DNA from: Octopus vulgaris | Taxonomy: Eukaryota | Direction: 5' to 3' | NCBI GenBank assembly: GCA_951406725.2 | Contig: OX597820.1 | Coordinates: forward strand, 7,502,001-7,566,000 | Length of the DNA stretch: 64,000 nucleotides | The notes under the pieces: model-generated | The model's input: the letters and a program-made list of their open reading frames with translations, nothing else | The model's database searches: none | Told to the model about the DNA's origin: nothing | In this document: piece after piece, positions 4,136-50,564 of the stretch | Position numbering within the stretch: the first letter of the stretch is position 1 | How the letters are laid out: each line of letters starts with the position of its first letter | Made by a program: the position numbers and the translations under genes

Positions 4136-5725
4136 GGTGGTCGGTTCCCTCTCGTTCCCGAGCATTGGGCTCGTTCGTTTCTATCCAGTCACCTCGGCTG
4201 ATGTTTGTGCTGAAAGTGACTTTGAGTCCAAATCGGTGGTGTAAGAGTCGTTGCTAAAACTTGCATGTGATGGTCGGTGCAGGTCGAGTATGTTGAAGAT
4301 GCTCTTTTCTTCTCTTGCGTTTTGCCTCATTATTTCGTTGTCTGTTCTGCTAGCTCCATTGCGGATAGCTGTCCTCCAGGCTGTCCTGTCCATGGCAATC
4401 TGTTCCCAGGAGGATGGCTGGATGTTAGCTTGAGGAAAGGTCCGTTTCAGCTGATCTTAAAAACGAAATTTCGGACCTCCGCTTGGTCTTGTTCCAATTG
4501 CAAGTTCTCCGTAGAGCATGATCCTTGGGAGACGAGAGGGCTCCATAAGCTGGACGTAACCCGCCCAGCGGAGATGATGACATAGAATGGTGGATTCGAC
4601 AATTGGTAGTGAGGTGCGGCGAGGAAACTCGTTGTTAGTAACGTGATCTTCCCATTGTATGTTGAGGATCTGTCGTAGCTTCGATTGCTGGAAGCATTCA
4701 AGGCGCTTGAAGTTACGGTTGTACAACATCCAAGTCTCATAAGCGTAGAGTAGAGTTGACAGGACAATGGCCCGGAAGACCAGCGCGTGATTTAAGAATA
4801 CACGTTGGCTGAGTCTGCCGAAAACGGATTGGGCCTCCCCAATCCGGTTCTCCACGTCCCTTTCACACGTGAGGGTCTTCGAAATGATACTTCCAAGGTA
4901 TGTGAAGTGTTCAACCTCTAGGGGTTTAGCCGTTGATGCTAATGTTTGTGGGTGGACCGTTCTGGCCTGATGCAGGTTGGATCAGCGTCTTGGTCGTTAA
5001 TGTGTTTAGCTATATCGCGAAGCGTTCGTAAACCACGTTATAAAGTTCGGCTGTCCTTTGTAGGCCATCTGCGGCCCGGCTCGGTGTGGAATTGTCGTCG
5101 GCATACAGCATCTCACGGTCTGAATTAGCGGAGGTCATCGTCTTTGCTGGGAGGCGTGCGAGATTGAAGAGTCCGCCATCCAAACGATAACGCATGTTGA
5201 TGGAGGGCGAGTTCAGTGGGATTTCGTTGAATATTGCGGCCGTGTACAAAGACAAACAGGTTGGTGCCAGGACGCATCCTTGCTTAACATCCACAGTGAT
5301 GAGGAACGGATCTGTGAGGGAAATTTTGATGGCATACCCTACCCACCAGTGGGAGTGGACCAGGAAAATGGAGTCCACAAGATATCCAAATCGGGCAAGG
5401 ACGACCCACATTGCAAGACGGGATGGGATGCCTTGTTAAAGGCTTTCTTTAGATCCCAGTCGAACATTGCTGGCTGTTGTTGTTCCTGACATTTCTCCTG
5501 GGGCTGACGGGCACAAAAGACCATGTCGATTGTGCTTTGAGAGGGTCGAAAGCCACAATGGGACTCAGGTCGAACGTATTTTGCGAGGATGAGGAGTCGA
5601 TTGAGTAGGATACAGGTGAAGATCTTACTTACAATACCCAGGAGTAAGATGGCCGATAGTTGTTGCAATCCTCTCGGTCTCCCTTCTTGTAGATGGTGAT
5701 GATAGTTGCATCGTAGAAGTCGTTA
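4136..5725 (-). mobile_element. RTE-clade (BovB-like) LINE, 5'-truncated, frameshifted reverse transcriptase
   Basis: ORF pieces PESHCGFRPSQSTIDMVFCARQPQEKCQEQ, DVKQGCVLAPT, MLYADD, RQILNIQWEDHVTNNE, RIMLYGELAIGTRPSGGPKFRF, MDRTAWR, all characteristic RTE motifs in the correct order. Confidence 0.93.
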
Positions 5726-12409: not shown

Positions 12410-13007
12410 TATTTCTTTACTACCCACAAGAGGCTAAACTCAAAGGAGACAAACAAGAACAGACAGACGGATTATATCGACCCCAGTGCGTAACTGGCAC
12501 CTAATTTATCGACCCCGAAAGGATGAAAGGCAAAGTCGATCTCGGCGGAATTTGAACTCAGAACGTAGCGGCAGACGAAATACCTATTTCTTTACTACCC
12601 ACAAGGATATAAACACAGAGGTGACAAACAAGGCGAGAGTCACGGATTAAGTCGATTATATCGACCCCAGTGCGTAACTGGTACTTATTTAATCGACCCT
12701 GAAAGGATGAAAGGCAAAGTCGACCTCGACGGAATTTGAACTCAGAACGTAACGGCAGACGAAATACCTATTTCTTTACTACCCACAAGGGGCTAAACAC
12801 AGAGGAGACAAACAAGGACAGACAAACGGATTAAGTCTATTAAGTCTATCGACCCCAGTGCGTAACTGGTACTTAATTTATTGACCCCGAAAGGATGAAA
12901 GGCAAAGTCGACCTTGGTGGAATTTGAACTCAGAACGTAGCAGCAGATGAAATACCGCTAAGTATTTCGCCCGGCGTGCTAACGATTCTGCCAGCTCATC
13001 GCCTTCA
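12410..13007 (-). mobile_element. Family A SINE trimer (one complete unit plus two 5'-truncated tandem units) inside a single TSD
   Basis: Three head-to-tail body+tail units with junctions GACGAAATAC|CTATTTC; TSD AGTG(A/G)TAGGTAATACC at 12394-12409 and 13008-13023. Confidence 0.9.
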
Positions 13008-23789: not shown

Positions 23790-24780
23790 TTTGGCTTCTG
23801 GCGAAGAAGGGAGTTCGATATCGCCGTCGGCTTTTTAGTTTTGTGCTTGATATTGATTCATCTGGGGTCTTGGACAGTAAGAGGTCAAGTTGTTTCTTGA
23901 AAACATCTACTCTCACTCCATGGCGCTCCCTCAGATGTTTTGGCAAGGAATTAAATAGCTGTGGACCCTTAAATCCCAAGCTATTGCAGTACATGGTTCT
24001 CGCCCTAGATGAGACAGCTGGAACTTTTGGAACAGTGCAGTGACGAGCATTTCGAGGTCTGGTATAACTCTCAATTCCAAAGTTTGGTGCCAGCCCCTCC
24101 TGTATCTTCCAAACATATATCACTGCATATTCTCTCCCTTCTTCTCTCCAGAGAGTAAAGTCGTAGCTCTTTCAGTCTCGCCCAGTAGCTCAGCAGTTTT
24201 ATTGATGCAATCTTTGTTGTGTAGTATCTCTGAACCGCCTCAAATTCTGCTATTAACACTACGGTATAGGGTGACCACAGTTGGGAGCAGTAGTCCAGAC
24301 GGTTGACGACAAATTTCCTCCATAGGACTAGCATAGTTTCCTGGTCCCATGTTCTGAAGGTTCTCAGAATCCATCCGGCCATTCGCCCGCACATTGCCAC
24401 CATCTTCCCGACAATGTGCTCCATGACTTTGCTGACATGGGAAGTTGGATTTCCGCTGCTTTTGCTCCAAAGTATCGTTGTTGTGTCTTCTGAGCACCAA
24501 TTAGCTGGTAGCGGATGTCTTGGAATTTGCCTGCATTAAACTGCATGCTATTTTCCTCAGCCTATTTATATATGGCATCTAGGTGTCTCTGTAGAAGATT
24601 AGCATCTTGGCTGCTTCTACTTCTTTTGTGTCATCGGCATAGCTAGTAAGCGTGGCTGTCTGTGTAACTGATGGCATGTCTGAAAGATGCACCATGAACA
24701 ATAGTGGCTCCAATACAGTTCTCTGAGGCACTCCACTTTCTATTAATGTCTCTGTGGAGAGGTTTCCGTTGGCTGCTACA
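23790..24780 (-). mobile_element. CR1-clade LINE, RT 3' portion, decayed
   Basis: GVPQRTVLEPLLF, SYADDTK (about 24625-24645), MQFNAGKFQ, RLDYCSQLWSP, LSYWARLKELRLYSLERRRER, FKKQLDLLLSKTPDE. Confidence 0.9.
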
Positions 24781-30890: not shown

Positions 30891-32028
30891 TCAGGTCATC
30901 CCATAAGTTCTGTCCGAATTATGAATAAAGAAAACAAGTGAACAAATATTATGTTTAATTGAAATGTAATCATCAATGTACTTTCCATGATTATCTATGA
31001 GTTCCTTCCATCTATTTACAAGCTTCTTAATCCCATCAATGTAAAACTCTTTTGGTTTCAAAGCAAAGAACTCTGAAATGTCAGTTCCGACCTTCACCTG
31101 GCTTGCGAAAGTTATGTCCACCAAATGATTCTGTAAACTACGAATCAAATGGTAGCCTGAAGGAACAATTTCGGTAGAATAAGGTGGATGATGTGATCTT
31201 TGCCGTGTGGGGTCACGCATTGTCCTGATGAAACATCACTCCTCTTCAATTCACTAAAGCGCTTTTTTTTCTTCCTTCGAAGCTTGATTCAGATGCTCTA
31301 ATTTCTGACAGCAGACTTGAGCATTGATTGTTGCATTAAGTAGTAACAATTCAAAGTGGATTACTCCTTTGTAATCCTACCAGATAGAGGTTGTGTTTGA
31401 GTCTTTTCCCTTTTACCAATCCACTGTTTACGGCGTTAAACATTTCGATATAAGATCCATTTTTGTCACCAGCCACAAGTCTATCCAAAAATGGTGAAAG
31501 GAGTTCGCGAGAATGGAGAGAAGAGCAGATGTCAACTCGGGATTTGCGTTTGCTTTCGGACAATTCATGAGGTATCCATTTTCCAAGTTTAGGAACCTTT
31601 CCAAGTTGTTGAAGATGACGATGAACGGTTGTATGGTTTGAACTACGCTTTATTGCCAATTCTTCAACTGATAATGCAGGATTTTCTTCAAGAAATGTCT
31701 CAAGGAGCTTATCATGAAACTCAACTGGACGTCCTGTTCGGTCTTCATTTTCAAGGCTGAAATCTCTACTTCTGAATTTTGCAAACCATTTTTTGCAAGT
31801 GTTTTCATTCAAGCATTTTTTCCCATAAACTGAGTGTATGTTTGGAGTCGCTTCGGCTGTAGAATTTCTTTTTTCGTACACATAAAGCATTATGAGCCTC
31901 AAATGGCCATGTTAGAAAGGGATTTAATCAAAGAAATTTTAATTCTATTAGACATTCTAAAATATTTTTAAATTTCATATTCAATTTTAAAAAAGGTAAA
32001 ATCAGACAGAACTTATAGGATGACCTGA
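30891..32028 (-). mobile_element. Mariner (DD34D-type) transposon, both TIRs and TA TSD, inactivated transposase
   Basis: TIRs TCAGGTCATCCCATAAGTTCTGTC / GACAGAACTTATAGGATGACCTGA flanked by TA; KWFAKFRS.DFSLENEDRTGRP, GKWIPHEL, HPPYSTEIVPSGYHL, GIKKLVNRWKELIDNHGKYI. Confidence 0.95.
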
Positions 32029-32324: not shown

Positions 32325-32509
32325 GGGAGAGTTTACGAAAAAAACAAAAGACGAAGACAGGTGGTGTACAAAACAAACAGATGTATTAGTATAAAGCTCA
32401 GGAATAGAAAAAAGTCTTTTACGTTTCGAGCCTACGCTCTTCTACAGAAAGGGACACAGAAAAAACAAGGAGAGAAAAAAATGTGTGTAGGAACTAACGA
32501 TCTATCATG
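32325..32509 (-). mobile_element. Putative Penelope-like terminal-repeat (pLTR) remnant with hammerhead motif
   Basis: 185-bp unique segment between (TA)n and (GA)n carrying CUUU-CUGUAGA-A-GAGC-GUAG-GCUC-GAAAC-GUA-AAAG. Confidence 0.68.
32416..32451 (-). ncRNA. Minimal type I hammerhead ribozyme-like motif (core variant CUGUAGA)
   Basis: Helix I CUUU/AAAG, helix II GAGC/GCUC, GAAA box, palindromic ACGU helix III, GUA cleavage triplet. Confidence 0.65.
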
Positions 32510-44127: not shown

Positions 44128-45213
44128 CAGTGTGGGGCAGAGAAGACGGACGTTTTTGAAATGGCTATTACTCAGCCCCAGTGGGAGGCACATATGCCCG
44201 ACGGGTACCATTCGGTCCGTGGTGTCTTAGCATTTGTTTTTCTTTTCAAGTGAAGCCAGTGTGCTGTAGACGAGGGGCCATTGCGTGTTTTCCCACGACA
44301 GTTACGTGAAGAATAACAAATCTGTCACAGCAGTTCAGCGTGATGAGTTTCGGCGCCACTTCAACATTCACCGAAATCAGGCCGTTCCCACCCGTAACAC
44401 GATCTTACGTTGGCTGAATGCACTTCGTACACGAGGTACACTAATTAATAGGAGATTGGTGGGGGAGCCACGAAGGGTACAGACCCCGGAAAACGGTACG
44501 GACATCGGAGGCATTCCCCTGAATTTGGCATCGGTAATTAATCGGTACGGTGTATTTTACATGAAGACCAGCAATTCCACCCGTACAAATTGGTCACTAG
44601 GCAACAATTGTAACTATAAGATTATGCATGGCAGCTTAACTTCGCACGTCAGATGGAAGCAATTTTTTAGGCAAATGACAACCTCATTTTGTTAATGAGT
44701 GATGAAGCTCATTTTCATCTCAATGGCATGGTGAATCAACAGAACTGTCGTTATTGGGCTCTTGAAATGAGGCAACGGCCCACACAGCCAGAGCATCAAT
44801 GGACGTTCTTCTCCCTCTCTTCGATGACCTCCTCATTTCCAGGTTTAATGATATTCCTTGGATCTCGGTCCACTGATTTCTCCATGTGTGATTATTTCTT
44901 GTGGGTAAACCTTAAATCAAGTGTGTATGCGCATAAGCAGCGTACATTGTACGATTTGAAGGAAGCTATTTGCGTGGAAGTCGCCCAAATCAACAAAGCA
45001 ATGGTGGAGAGAGTGGAGACCAACTTCCAAGAAGGACTTCAGAAATGCTTCAATGAAAACGGACACCACGTGATGGATGTTGCTTTCCATAGTTCATTTT
45101 GGCAAATGCCAATTCAATACAAACACATTGGTGTGTCAATAAAATTTGTTTGCAACTAAAATTAATGATTTTGTGAATTTTTCAAAACCGTCCGTCCTCT
45201 CTGCCCCACCCTG
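44128..45213 (+). mobile_element. Tc1/mariner DD41D-type transposon, internally deleted, both TIRs and TA TSD
   Basis: TIRs CAGTGTGGGGCAGAGAAGACGGACGTTTTTGAA / TTCAAAACCGTCCGTCCTCTCTGCCCCACCCTG flanked by TA; SVTAVQR..FRRHF..PTRNTILRW, MSDEAHFHLNGMVNQQNCRYWA, SRSTDFSMCDYFLW; QQDGA region missing. Confidence 0.9.
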
Positions 45214-50155: not shown

Positions 50156-50244
50156 CATCTATCTATATATCTATCCCCTTCCATCTCTCTTCCTCTCTCC
50201 TTATATATATATATATATGTATATCTATCTATATATCTACCTAC

Positions 50245-50294
<50 letters not shown>

Positions 50295-50295
<1 letters not shown>

Positions 50296-50505
50296 GCTGT
50301 GACTGCGTGTGTATCGTTGGCGATTTTTTCCCTCCGTCTTCCCTTCCTTGGATCTTTCCTTTTCCTGTGTTTCTGACGAAGAGCTCCGCTCGAAACGTTT
50401 AATCCTCCTTCTTTCTTTCCTTTCCTGATCATCCAATAACACTATACCAGTTCTACGTCCTCGCGTTGTTGTGTTTTCTCTTTGTGTTTTCATGTTTGGA
50501 TTAAC

Positions 50506-50508
<3 letters not shown>
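50295..50508 (+). mobile_element. Putative Penelope-like terminal-repeat (pLTR) remnant with hammerhead motif
   Basis: 215-bp unique segment between (TCTA)n and (TA)n carrying GUUU-CUGACGA-A-GAGC-UCC-GCUC-GAAAC-GUU-UAAUC. Confidence 0.7.
50369..50405 (+). ncRNA. Minimal type I hammerhead ribozyme-like motif
   Basis: Canonical CUGAnGA and GAAA boxes, helix II GAGC/GCUC, palindromic AAACGUUU; helix I imperfect in this copy. Confidence 0.68.
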
Positions 50509-50560
<52 letters not shown>

Positions 50561-50564
50561 ATAT

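What the first reader, a model, noticed from the sequence alone, without database searches (positions are those of the whole stretch)
50295..50508. Second hammerhead mini-element: same ribozyme scaffold, unrelated flanks
Seen: canonical CUGACGA-A-GAGC-UCC-GCUC-GAAAC-GU shares the extra A, the GAGC/GCUC helix II and the ACGU palindrome with the 32.4-kb motif. The rest of the two ~200-bp elements is only compositionally similar (pyrimidine-rich, ATCGTT near the start, 3' end running into (TA)n). Inference: at least two families of ribozyme-bearing, microsatellite-targeted solo terminal repeats or retrozyme-like units. Shared ACGU palindromes raise the possibility of cross-family dimer activation in one long transcript.
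Basis: partly seen in the sequence, partly recalled or inferred. Interest (0 to 1): 0.72.

Follow-up and report, generated by a model that had tools for sequence, protein, structure and literature searches.

The report
Truncated Penelope retrotransposon end with hammerhead
This 209-base piece is the cut-short tail of a common Penelope-like jumping gene, carrying that group's known small hammerhead RNA motif with a private mutation predicted to weaken it; the similar motif 18 kb away is the tail of a sister element on the opposite strand, so the pair is ordinary.

Summary
The motif is real (50369-50403, +). It lies in a 209-bp 5'-truncated copy of the terminal repeat (pLTR) of an autonomous Penelope-like element, Neptune-type by motif layout. 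This repeat lies downstream of an RT + GIY-YIG ORF in 29 of 40 ORF loci. One near-intact pLTR-ORF-pLTR copy has an 816-codon open frame. The 32.4-kb element ends a sister family (ORF 64% identical; 18 of 20 loci). The families are related, their 3' flanks show weak homology, and the shared features are the published hallmarks of PLE minimal hammerheads. The scaffold has 39,036 exact matches in the genome, so two per window is unremarkable. The two motifs lie on opposite strands and cannot both be sense in one transcript. The family forms a 4-bp helix I whose outer pair differs between families; this copy breaks its first pair. 5' ends do not pile up at the cut site (1 of 50). Most relatives carry U4C (70 of 100) or A6U (94 of 100) cores; this scan noted such variants before on other DNA of this genome. 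Cleavage is untested. New member of a known kind.

The parts
50298..50506 (+). 5'-truncated copy of the 3' pseudo-LTR of a Penelope-like retrotransposon (family 'F50'); 8 differences from the majority sequence of its 29 closest copies
   Evidence: same repeat downstream of the PLE ORF in 29 of 40 loci, closest ORF-linked copy L091 at 92%
50369..50403 (+). Minimal type I hammerhead motif: helix I 5' arm 50369-72, core C3-A9 50373-79, extra A 50380, helix II 50381-91, GAAA 50392-95, palindrome 50395-98, predicted cut after 50399, helix I 3' arm 50400-03
   Evidence: architecture as described in PMC4209133
50400..50400 (+). Copy-specific A-to-T change at position 1.1; makes a U.U mismatch in the helix I pair next to the cut site
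   Evidence: 46 of 56 three-base-loop copies in fetched loci keep all four pairs
50509..50564 (.). (TA)n microsatellite at the fixed 3' junction, the likely target site
50222..50295 (.). (TATC)n microsatellite at the 5' junction
32325..32509 (-). Comparison element: 5'-truncated 3' pseudo-LTR of the sister PLE family 'F32', hammerhead core with U at position 6 (C3 at 32447)

Best explanation
The element is a 5'-truncated copy of the 3' end of an autonomous RT + GIY-YIG Penelope-like retrotransposon, likely of the Neptune clade, and its hammerhead motif is a likely inactive passenger here. Shown: family membership, ORF linkage, fixed 3' end at (TA)n, ragged 5' ends, and a tandem junction in which the repeat end is followed by TTTATATA and the 5' UTR. 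Inferred: the element's endonuclease nicks a (TA)n tract; reverse transcription starts inside the tandem RNA at the pLTR/5'UTR junction, where the RNA's own UA-repeat could pair with the target; synthesis stopped after about 210 nt. The template must have been uncut (or re-ligated) at the hammerhead site, because the copy holds both sides of it. In master elements the motif would act as a slow, dimer-dependent, probably protein-assisted ribozyme between two pLTRs of one tandem transcript. This solo copy has no same-strand partner in the window and has a broken first pair in helix I.
For: ORF remnant with RT, C-x4-CxxC linker and GIY-YIG 1.2 kb upstream of an F50 copy. F50 repeat downstream on the same strand in 29 of 40 ORF loci, at 0.3-3.3 kb. 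L151 is pLTR-5'UTR-816-codon frame-CA-rich UTR-pLTR-(TA)n. Pfam RVT_1 E 0.0016 and GIY-YIG E 0.0079, both below their curated cut-offs. 743 homologues at E<=1e-30, most of the 120 listed with a precomputed PF00078. 24-residue spacer after the CxxC, like Neptune rows (25, 27) and unlike Nematis rows (7, 7) in the Craig et al. supplement, compared by eye. 3' (TA)n in 21 of 29. Identical tandem junction in 5 of 5 upstream pLTRs found without selecting for it and 53 genome-wide matches. F32 downstream of its own ORF in 18 of 20 loci, best copy 64% identical over 660 aa. 33 of 50 tandem insertions start upstream of the cut site and 1 of 50 within 3 nt of it. PMC11167929 reports internal RT initiation, AT-rich cutting, a protein-assisted hammerhead and insertion unaffected by catalytic mutants.
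Against: The window copy is too short to show whether its template was the autonomous RNA or an internally deleted derivative (14 of 30 tandem-junction loci are such short units). The clade was assigned by motif layout, with no tree against reference elements. No start codon or intron was defined for the ORF. 11 of 40 ORF loci lacked a downstream F50 repeat within about 4 kb. The biochemical model comes from a Poseidon-clade element, not from Neptune. No cleavage or expression data.
Confidence: 0.9

Rival explanations
1. The copy is the end of a non-autonomous, retrozyme-like short unit (pLTR + start of 5' UTR + pLTR, about 350-690 bp) that spreads through small RNA circles using the PLE enzyme.
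For: 14 of 30 tandem-junction loci return to a second pLTR within about 180-510 bp; L214, one of these, is 88.5% identical to the window copy. Animal retrozymes are reported as PLE pLTR relatives (bioRxiv 10.64898/2026.07.22.740005).
Against: The 14 short units have different breakpoints by eye, so they look like independent deletions or template jumps and not one amplified family. No multimer array was seen among them. The closest long copy is ORF-bearing L091 (92%). The hammerhead is the minimal PLE type, not the canonical type of retrozymes (PMC7229834 passages).
Confidence: 0.07
2. Hammerheads of the two families pair through their shared ACGU palindrome and activate each other when co-transcribed in one long host RNA.
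For: ACGU is shared. Same-strand cross-family neighbours exist elsewhere: G000:C1:3134681 and 3135159, 478 bp apart; L035 and L038; L197. The computed active-fold energy of the mixed dimer (-4.6 kcal/mol) is not worse than that of the F50 homodimer (-3.1).
Against: This pair is on opposite strands. In the swapped dimer helix I is also intermolecular, and the mixed dimer loses the outer pair at both sites, leaving three U-A pairs; it is 2.4-3.8 kcal/mol above the mean of the homodimers. All active folds lie far above the mis-paired minimum (-18 to -22.5). The F32 core has U6, and a change at position 6 gave low activity in PMC3088659 (A6C).
Confidence: 0.03

Closest known systems
Minimal type I hammerheads (min-HHR) in pLTRs of metazoan Penelope-like elements (Cervera and de la Pena 2014, PMC4209133; read parts 1-2 of 4)
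   Same: Short helix I (4 bp), extra nucleotide between 9 and 10.1, G10.1-C11.1, palindromic 15.2-16.2 with no stable helix III, mostly solo motifs in truncated copies, several families per genome, a few copies flanking an ORF.
   Different: Helix II is 4 bp (7-8 bp in the Schistosoma examples). The sister lineages here mostly carry U4C or A6U, which the parts read do not list (they list U3-A8).
Neptune-clade EN+ PLEs (Craig et al. 2021, PMC8557442; passages, section 6, four supplement rows)
   Same: RT then C-terminal GIY-YIG with two Cys in the core, CX2-5CxxC linker, DKG motif, partial tandems forming pLTRs, 5' truncation, inverted 5' copies, microsatellite bias attributed to the linker.
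   Different: A long, variable CA-rich stretch (about 0.8-3.3 kb) separates ORF and pLTR here. These two families were not matched to any named family; Repbase and Dfam could not be searched.
Poseidon element PAc of Anolis carolinensis (Frangieh et al. 2024, PMC11167929; read parts 1-2 of 4)
   Same: Tandem pLTR organisation, AT-rich targets, hammerhead in the pLTR, and insertions apparently made from unprocessed RNA.
   Different: In PAc the ORF starts inside the hammerhead and the RT start lies in an AC-rich stem-loop with no target homology. Here the hammerhead is about 100 nt before the fixed end and the junction carries a TA run that matches the target.
Animal non-LTR retrozymes (PMC7229834 passages; bioRxiv 10.64898/2026.07.22.740005 part 1 of 5 and passages)
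   Same: Type I hammerhead in a short repeat related to PLE pLTRs.
   Different: Retrozymes are tandem non-coding units; this is a single truncated end of a protein-coding element.

Membership tests
EN+ Penelope-like element | Single ORF with PLE-type RT followed by GIY-YIG endonuclease | tested here: met
   816-codon open frame in L151 with DKG, motif A/B/C, GIY-YIG; Pfam hits below curated cut-offs; 743 homologues. The ORF is in relatives, not in the window.
EN+ Penelope-like element | Partial tandem that forms pseudo-LTRs around the ORF | tested here: met
   L150, L151, L152 have the repeat on both sides of the ORF; 53 junction matches
EN+ Penelope-like element | Fixed 3' end, variable 5' truncation, AT-rich target | tested here: met
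Neptune clade | CX2-5CxxC linker between RT and EN, Neptune-length spacer | tested here: met
   C-x4-CxxC then 24 residues to the next Cys; Neptune rows 25 and 27, Nematis rows 7 and 7, by eye on 4 supplement rows
Neptune clade | Placement in an RT phylogeny with reference elements | not tested
   No named reference sequences were available as tool output
Minimal type I hammerhead | Core C3-A9 and G12-A15.1, U16.1-H17 | tested here: met
   Canonical in the window copy; 28 of the first 100 three-base-loop matches have U4, 70 have C4, 2 have A4 (hand count)
Minimal type I hammerhead | Helix I and helix II can form | tested here: inconclusive
   Family: 4-bp helix I in 46 of 56 (F50 type) and 43 of 48 (four-base-loop) copies, outer pair G-Y versus C-G between families. 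Window copy: first pair U.U. Helix II probability 0.34-0.9, helix I about 0.01 as a monomer
Minimal type I hammerhead | Self-cleavage as a dimer | not testable with these tools
   Needs an in vitro assay
Non-LTR retrozyme | Tandem non-coding units, each with a hammerhead | tested here: not met
   Single copy in the window; family tied to an ORF; short two-repeat units have unshared breakpoints
Non-LTR retrozyme | Small circular RNA | not testable with these tools
   Only assembled contigs were available

The most novel reading that the evidence does not exclude
In these sister Neptune-type lineages the hammerhead is kept as a fold, not as a cutter. One lineage has largely fixed U4C and the other A6U in tens of thousands of copies, while helix I covaries between families and the free positions 7 and 17 drift. 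Insertions show no trace of cutting at the predicted site. The motif would then be a dimerisation or enzyme-binding element whose family-specific helix I keeps pairing within a family.
Probability: 0.25. Interest if true: 0.55.

Novelty: new member of a known kind. Interest (0 to 1): 0.2.

Why it matters
The locus itself matters little: it is one of tens of thousands of truncated retrotransposon ends. The families are a handy natural test set for an open question, namely what the PLE hammerhead is for. They offer canonical, U4C and A6U cores on one scaffold, a near-intact coding copy (L151), and a count showing that integrated copies mostly come from uncut RNA. If the variant cores prove inactive while the fold is conserved, the motif's role is not self-cleavage.

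Tried and rejected
Rfam scan of the window: no hammerhead family among the 150 of 253 matches shown; those shown were sub-threshold microRNA-type hits on microsatellites, and 103 rows were not shown. PDB sequence search with the ORF: 0 matches at E<=1. A pattern with a five-base loop was a mis-specified first try (31 matches). RNA evidence: no RNA holder listed; four runs were laid as contigs, which cannot show ends, strand or level, and were not used for or against expression. Idea that the canonical CTGA core is just CpG decay of CCGA: rejected, because 9 of 10 copies with the AAAT helix I arm have CTGA (hand count), so it marks a subfamily. Idea that the hammerhead cut sets the 5' end of tandem insertions: not supported (1 of 50 within 3 nt; about 1 expected from an even spread over about 320 nt; the 50 loci were selected by the exact junction pattern, 50 of 53 examined, and TA microhomology blurs ends by a few bases). 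Pairing of the F50 3' end (GGATTAA) with the cut-site region was seen by eye but is absent from the predicted folds and has no clear match in F32; dropped. An alternative register for the window copy (cut one base later) gives two U-A pairs, a U.U and a non-palindromic loop; not pursued. Lunse et al. 2017 on dimer cleavage could not be read; I know it only by its title in the reference list and the review text of PMC6765202. PMC12602865 added nothing. Look-up of earlier findings by this sequence returned nothing.

Full report
OBSERVATION. The sequence at 50373-50398 (+) reads CTGACGA-A-GAGC-TCC-GCTC-GAAACGT. A loose two-strand scan of the window gave five core-like hits, of which two have this scaffold: this one and one on the minus strand with C3 at 32447 and U at position 6. 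The element sits between (TATC)n at 50222-50295 and (TA)n at 50509-50564. Direct comparison of the two window elements gives one significant alignment, the 44 bases over the hammerhead. The genome G000 is 2.8 Gb in 227 contigs. That it is an octopus is my recall and the wording of earlier scan notes, not a tool label.

IT IS A HIGH-COPY REPEAT. The 214-base query had 3443 first-look candidates, of which 40 were scored, at 93-96% identity apart from itself. The 32.4-kb element had 1668. The shared scaffold has 39,036 exact matches and 0 for the reversed control: one per 72 kb, so two in a 64-kb window has a Poisson chance of about 0.22 (my arithmetic). Core-anchored patterns give 13,351 three-base-loop and 19,752 four-base-loop matches. 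In both families the 3' end is fixed and the 5' end is ragged. (TA)n follows within 24 nt in 21 of 29 F50 copies, any microsatellite in 27 of 29; the background for (TA)n is 446 of 5800 windows.

IT IS THE END OF A PROTEIN-CODING ELEMENT. Walking upstream through longer copies led through a CA-rich stretch to a decayed RT + GIY-YIG ORF 1.2 kb upstream of an F50 repeat in L091. L091's repeat is the closest long relative of the window copy (92%). Of 40 loci picked by ORF similarity alone, 29 have the F50 repeat downstream on the same strand at 0.3-3.3 kb (two of these partial) and 11 do not within about 4 kb; three have it on both sides of the ORF at full spacing (my count). L151 reads pLTR, TTTATATA, 5' UTR, an 816-codon stop-to-stop frame, CA-rich UTR, pLTR, (TA)n. 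Pfam gives RVT_1 (E 0.0016) and GIY-YIG (E 0.0079), both under their cut-offs. A protein search found 743 relatives at E<=1e-30; none of the 120 listed has an informative name. The linker is C-x4-CxxC with 24 residues to the next Cys, which fits the two Neptune rows and not the two Nematis rows shown from the Craig et al. supplement (by eye). No part of the ORF or 5' UTR is in the window.

THE 32.4-KB ELEMENT IS A SISTER FAMILY. An ORF piece lies about 0.8 kb upstream of F32 in L076/L169. In 18 of 20 loci fetched from the top of the ORF search, F32 follows on the same strand at 0.35-1.1 kb, two of them as partial matches. The best F32 ORF is 64% identical to the F50 ORF over 660 residues. The family-majority 3' flanks are weakly homologous (local 7 of 2000 shuffles, global 66 of 2000), the 5' flanks are not (192 and 118 of 2000), and the two window copies alone are not (300 of 2000).

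THE HAMMERHEAD. The family forms helix I as GUUU with AAAU or AAAC; F32 uses CUUU with AAAG, a two-sided change at the outer pair. All four pairs are possible in 46 of 56 three-base-loop and 43 of 48 four-base-loop copies in the loci held at that point, which are not a random sample and may count an overlapping locus twice. The window copy differs from its family majority at 8 of 209 positions, one being A1.1 to U, which breaks the pair next to the cut site. As a monomer helix I has a probability near 0.01. In the swapped dimer both helix III and helix I are intermolecular, so a mixed F50/F32 dimer loses the outer pair at both sites. Its computed energy is 2.4-3.8 kcal/mol above the mean of the homodimers but not above the F50 homodimer itself, and every active fold is far above the mis-paired minimum, so these energies are weak evidence. 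The two window motifs are on opposite strands, so one transcript cannot hold both as sense. Same-strand cross-family neighbours do occur elsewhere.

CORE VARIANTS IN RELATIVES. In the first 100 listed three-base-loop matches on contig C1, 70 have C4, 28 U4 and 2 A4; 16 share a subfamily with a U.U inside helix I (hand counts). In the first 100 four-base-loop matches, 94 have U6, 4 A6 and 2 C6, while position 7 takes all four bases (hand counts). PMC3088659 says U4C lowers activity in vitro yet supports viroid infection, and A6C gave low activity; it has no 'A6U' (passages). A search for hammerhead + U4C + A6U + catalytic core + Penelope listed 15 of 22 papers, none with 'A6U'. That single search is my only basis for not finding it in print; Lunse et al. 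2017, most supplements and repeat databases were not seen and may describe these variants. Earlier scan notes report the same kinds of variant on other DNA of this genome; I had the counts before reading them.

MECHANISM. The tandem junction is identical in 5 of 5 upstream pLTRs found without selection and has 53 exact matches. Solo ends read either ...TTAAC then TATA or ...TTAACTT then TATA, which fits two adjacent start points beside a TA run in the template (inference). Of 30 junction loci, 8 run on into the ORF, 1 does so with a deletion, 14 jump back to a second repeat and 7 stop early (my count); the 14 have different breakpoints by eye. In 50 of the 53 junction loci, the upstream repeat starts upstream of the predicted cut in 33, within 3 nt in 1 and downstream in 16. 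So cutting does not visibly set the 5' end, and any copy holding both sides of the site came from uncut or re-ligated RNA. This agrees with the in vitro work on PAc, where hammerhead mutants still insert and cleavage needs the protein (PMC11167929).

VERDICT. A real motif with an ordinary explanation: the truncated 3' pLTR of a Neptune-type Penelope-like element, probably inactive at this locus. The passages of the published octopus repeat annotation that I saw list Penelope-like families and contain no 'ribozyme' in the main text (PMC13282606). New member of a known kind; interest 0.2. The residual interest lies in the variant cores of the relatives, not in this copy.

Noticed in passing
window 32325-32509 (-) and G000 genome-wide: The sister family has U at core position 6 in 94 of the first 100 listed copies while positions 7 and 17 vary; 19,752 pattern matches.
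   Followed up: partly
G000 contig C1, first 100 three-base-loop matches: 70 of 100 carry U4C; a subfamily of 16 also has a U.U mismatch inside helix I with C at position 17; a small third family with a different loop and A at position 7 is present.
   Followed up: partly
L151 (G000:C11:22479400-22489399, minus): Near-intact pLTR-ORF-pLTR element with an 816-codon open frame; L150 and L152 have the same layout. A candidate source of protein for assays.
   Followed up: yes
L191-L217 (14 loci): Short pLTR-5'UTR-pLTR units of about 350-690 bp with different breakpoints, possibly template jumps during reverse transcription; they could be raw material for retrozymes.
   Followed up: partly
L043, L035, L038, L197; G000:C1:3134681 and 3135159: F50 and F32 copies share single (TA)n tracts, tail-to-tail or on the same strand; 11 neighbour pairs within 2 kb among the first 100 matches against about 4 expected (my count).
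   Followed up: partly
L193, L199, L208: An inverted pLTR copy abuts a repeat that starts 11-18 nt downstream of the predicted cut site, the inverted 5' arrangement described for PLEs.
   Followed up: no
window 31354-31911 (-), 44671-45156 (+), 4460-4981 (-), 24074-24535 (-): Open frames that look by eye like transposase (first two) and LINE reverse-transcriptase (last two) remnants; not checked against any library.
   Followed up: no
window 12470-12956: 184-bp unit repeated 2.6 times; resembles a common short interspersed repeat of this genome by my recall.
   Followed up: no
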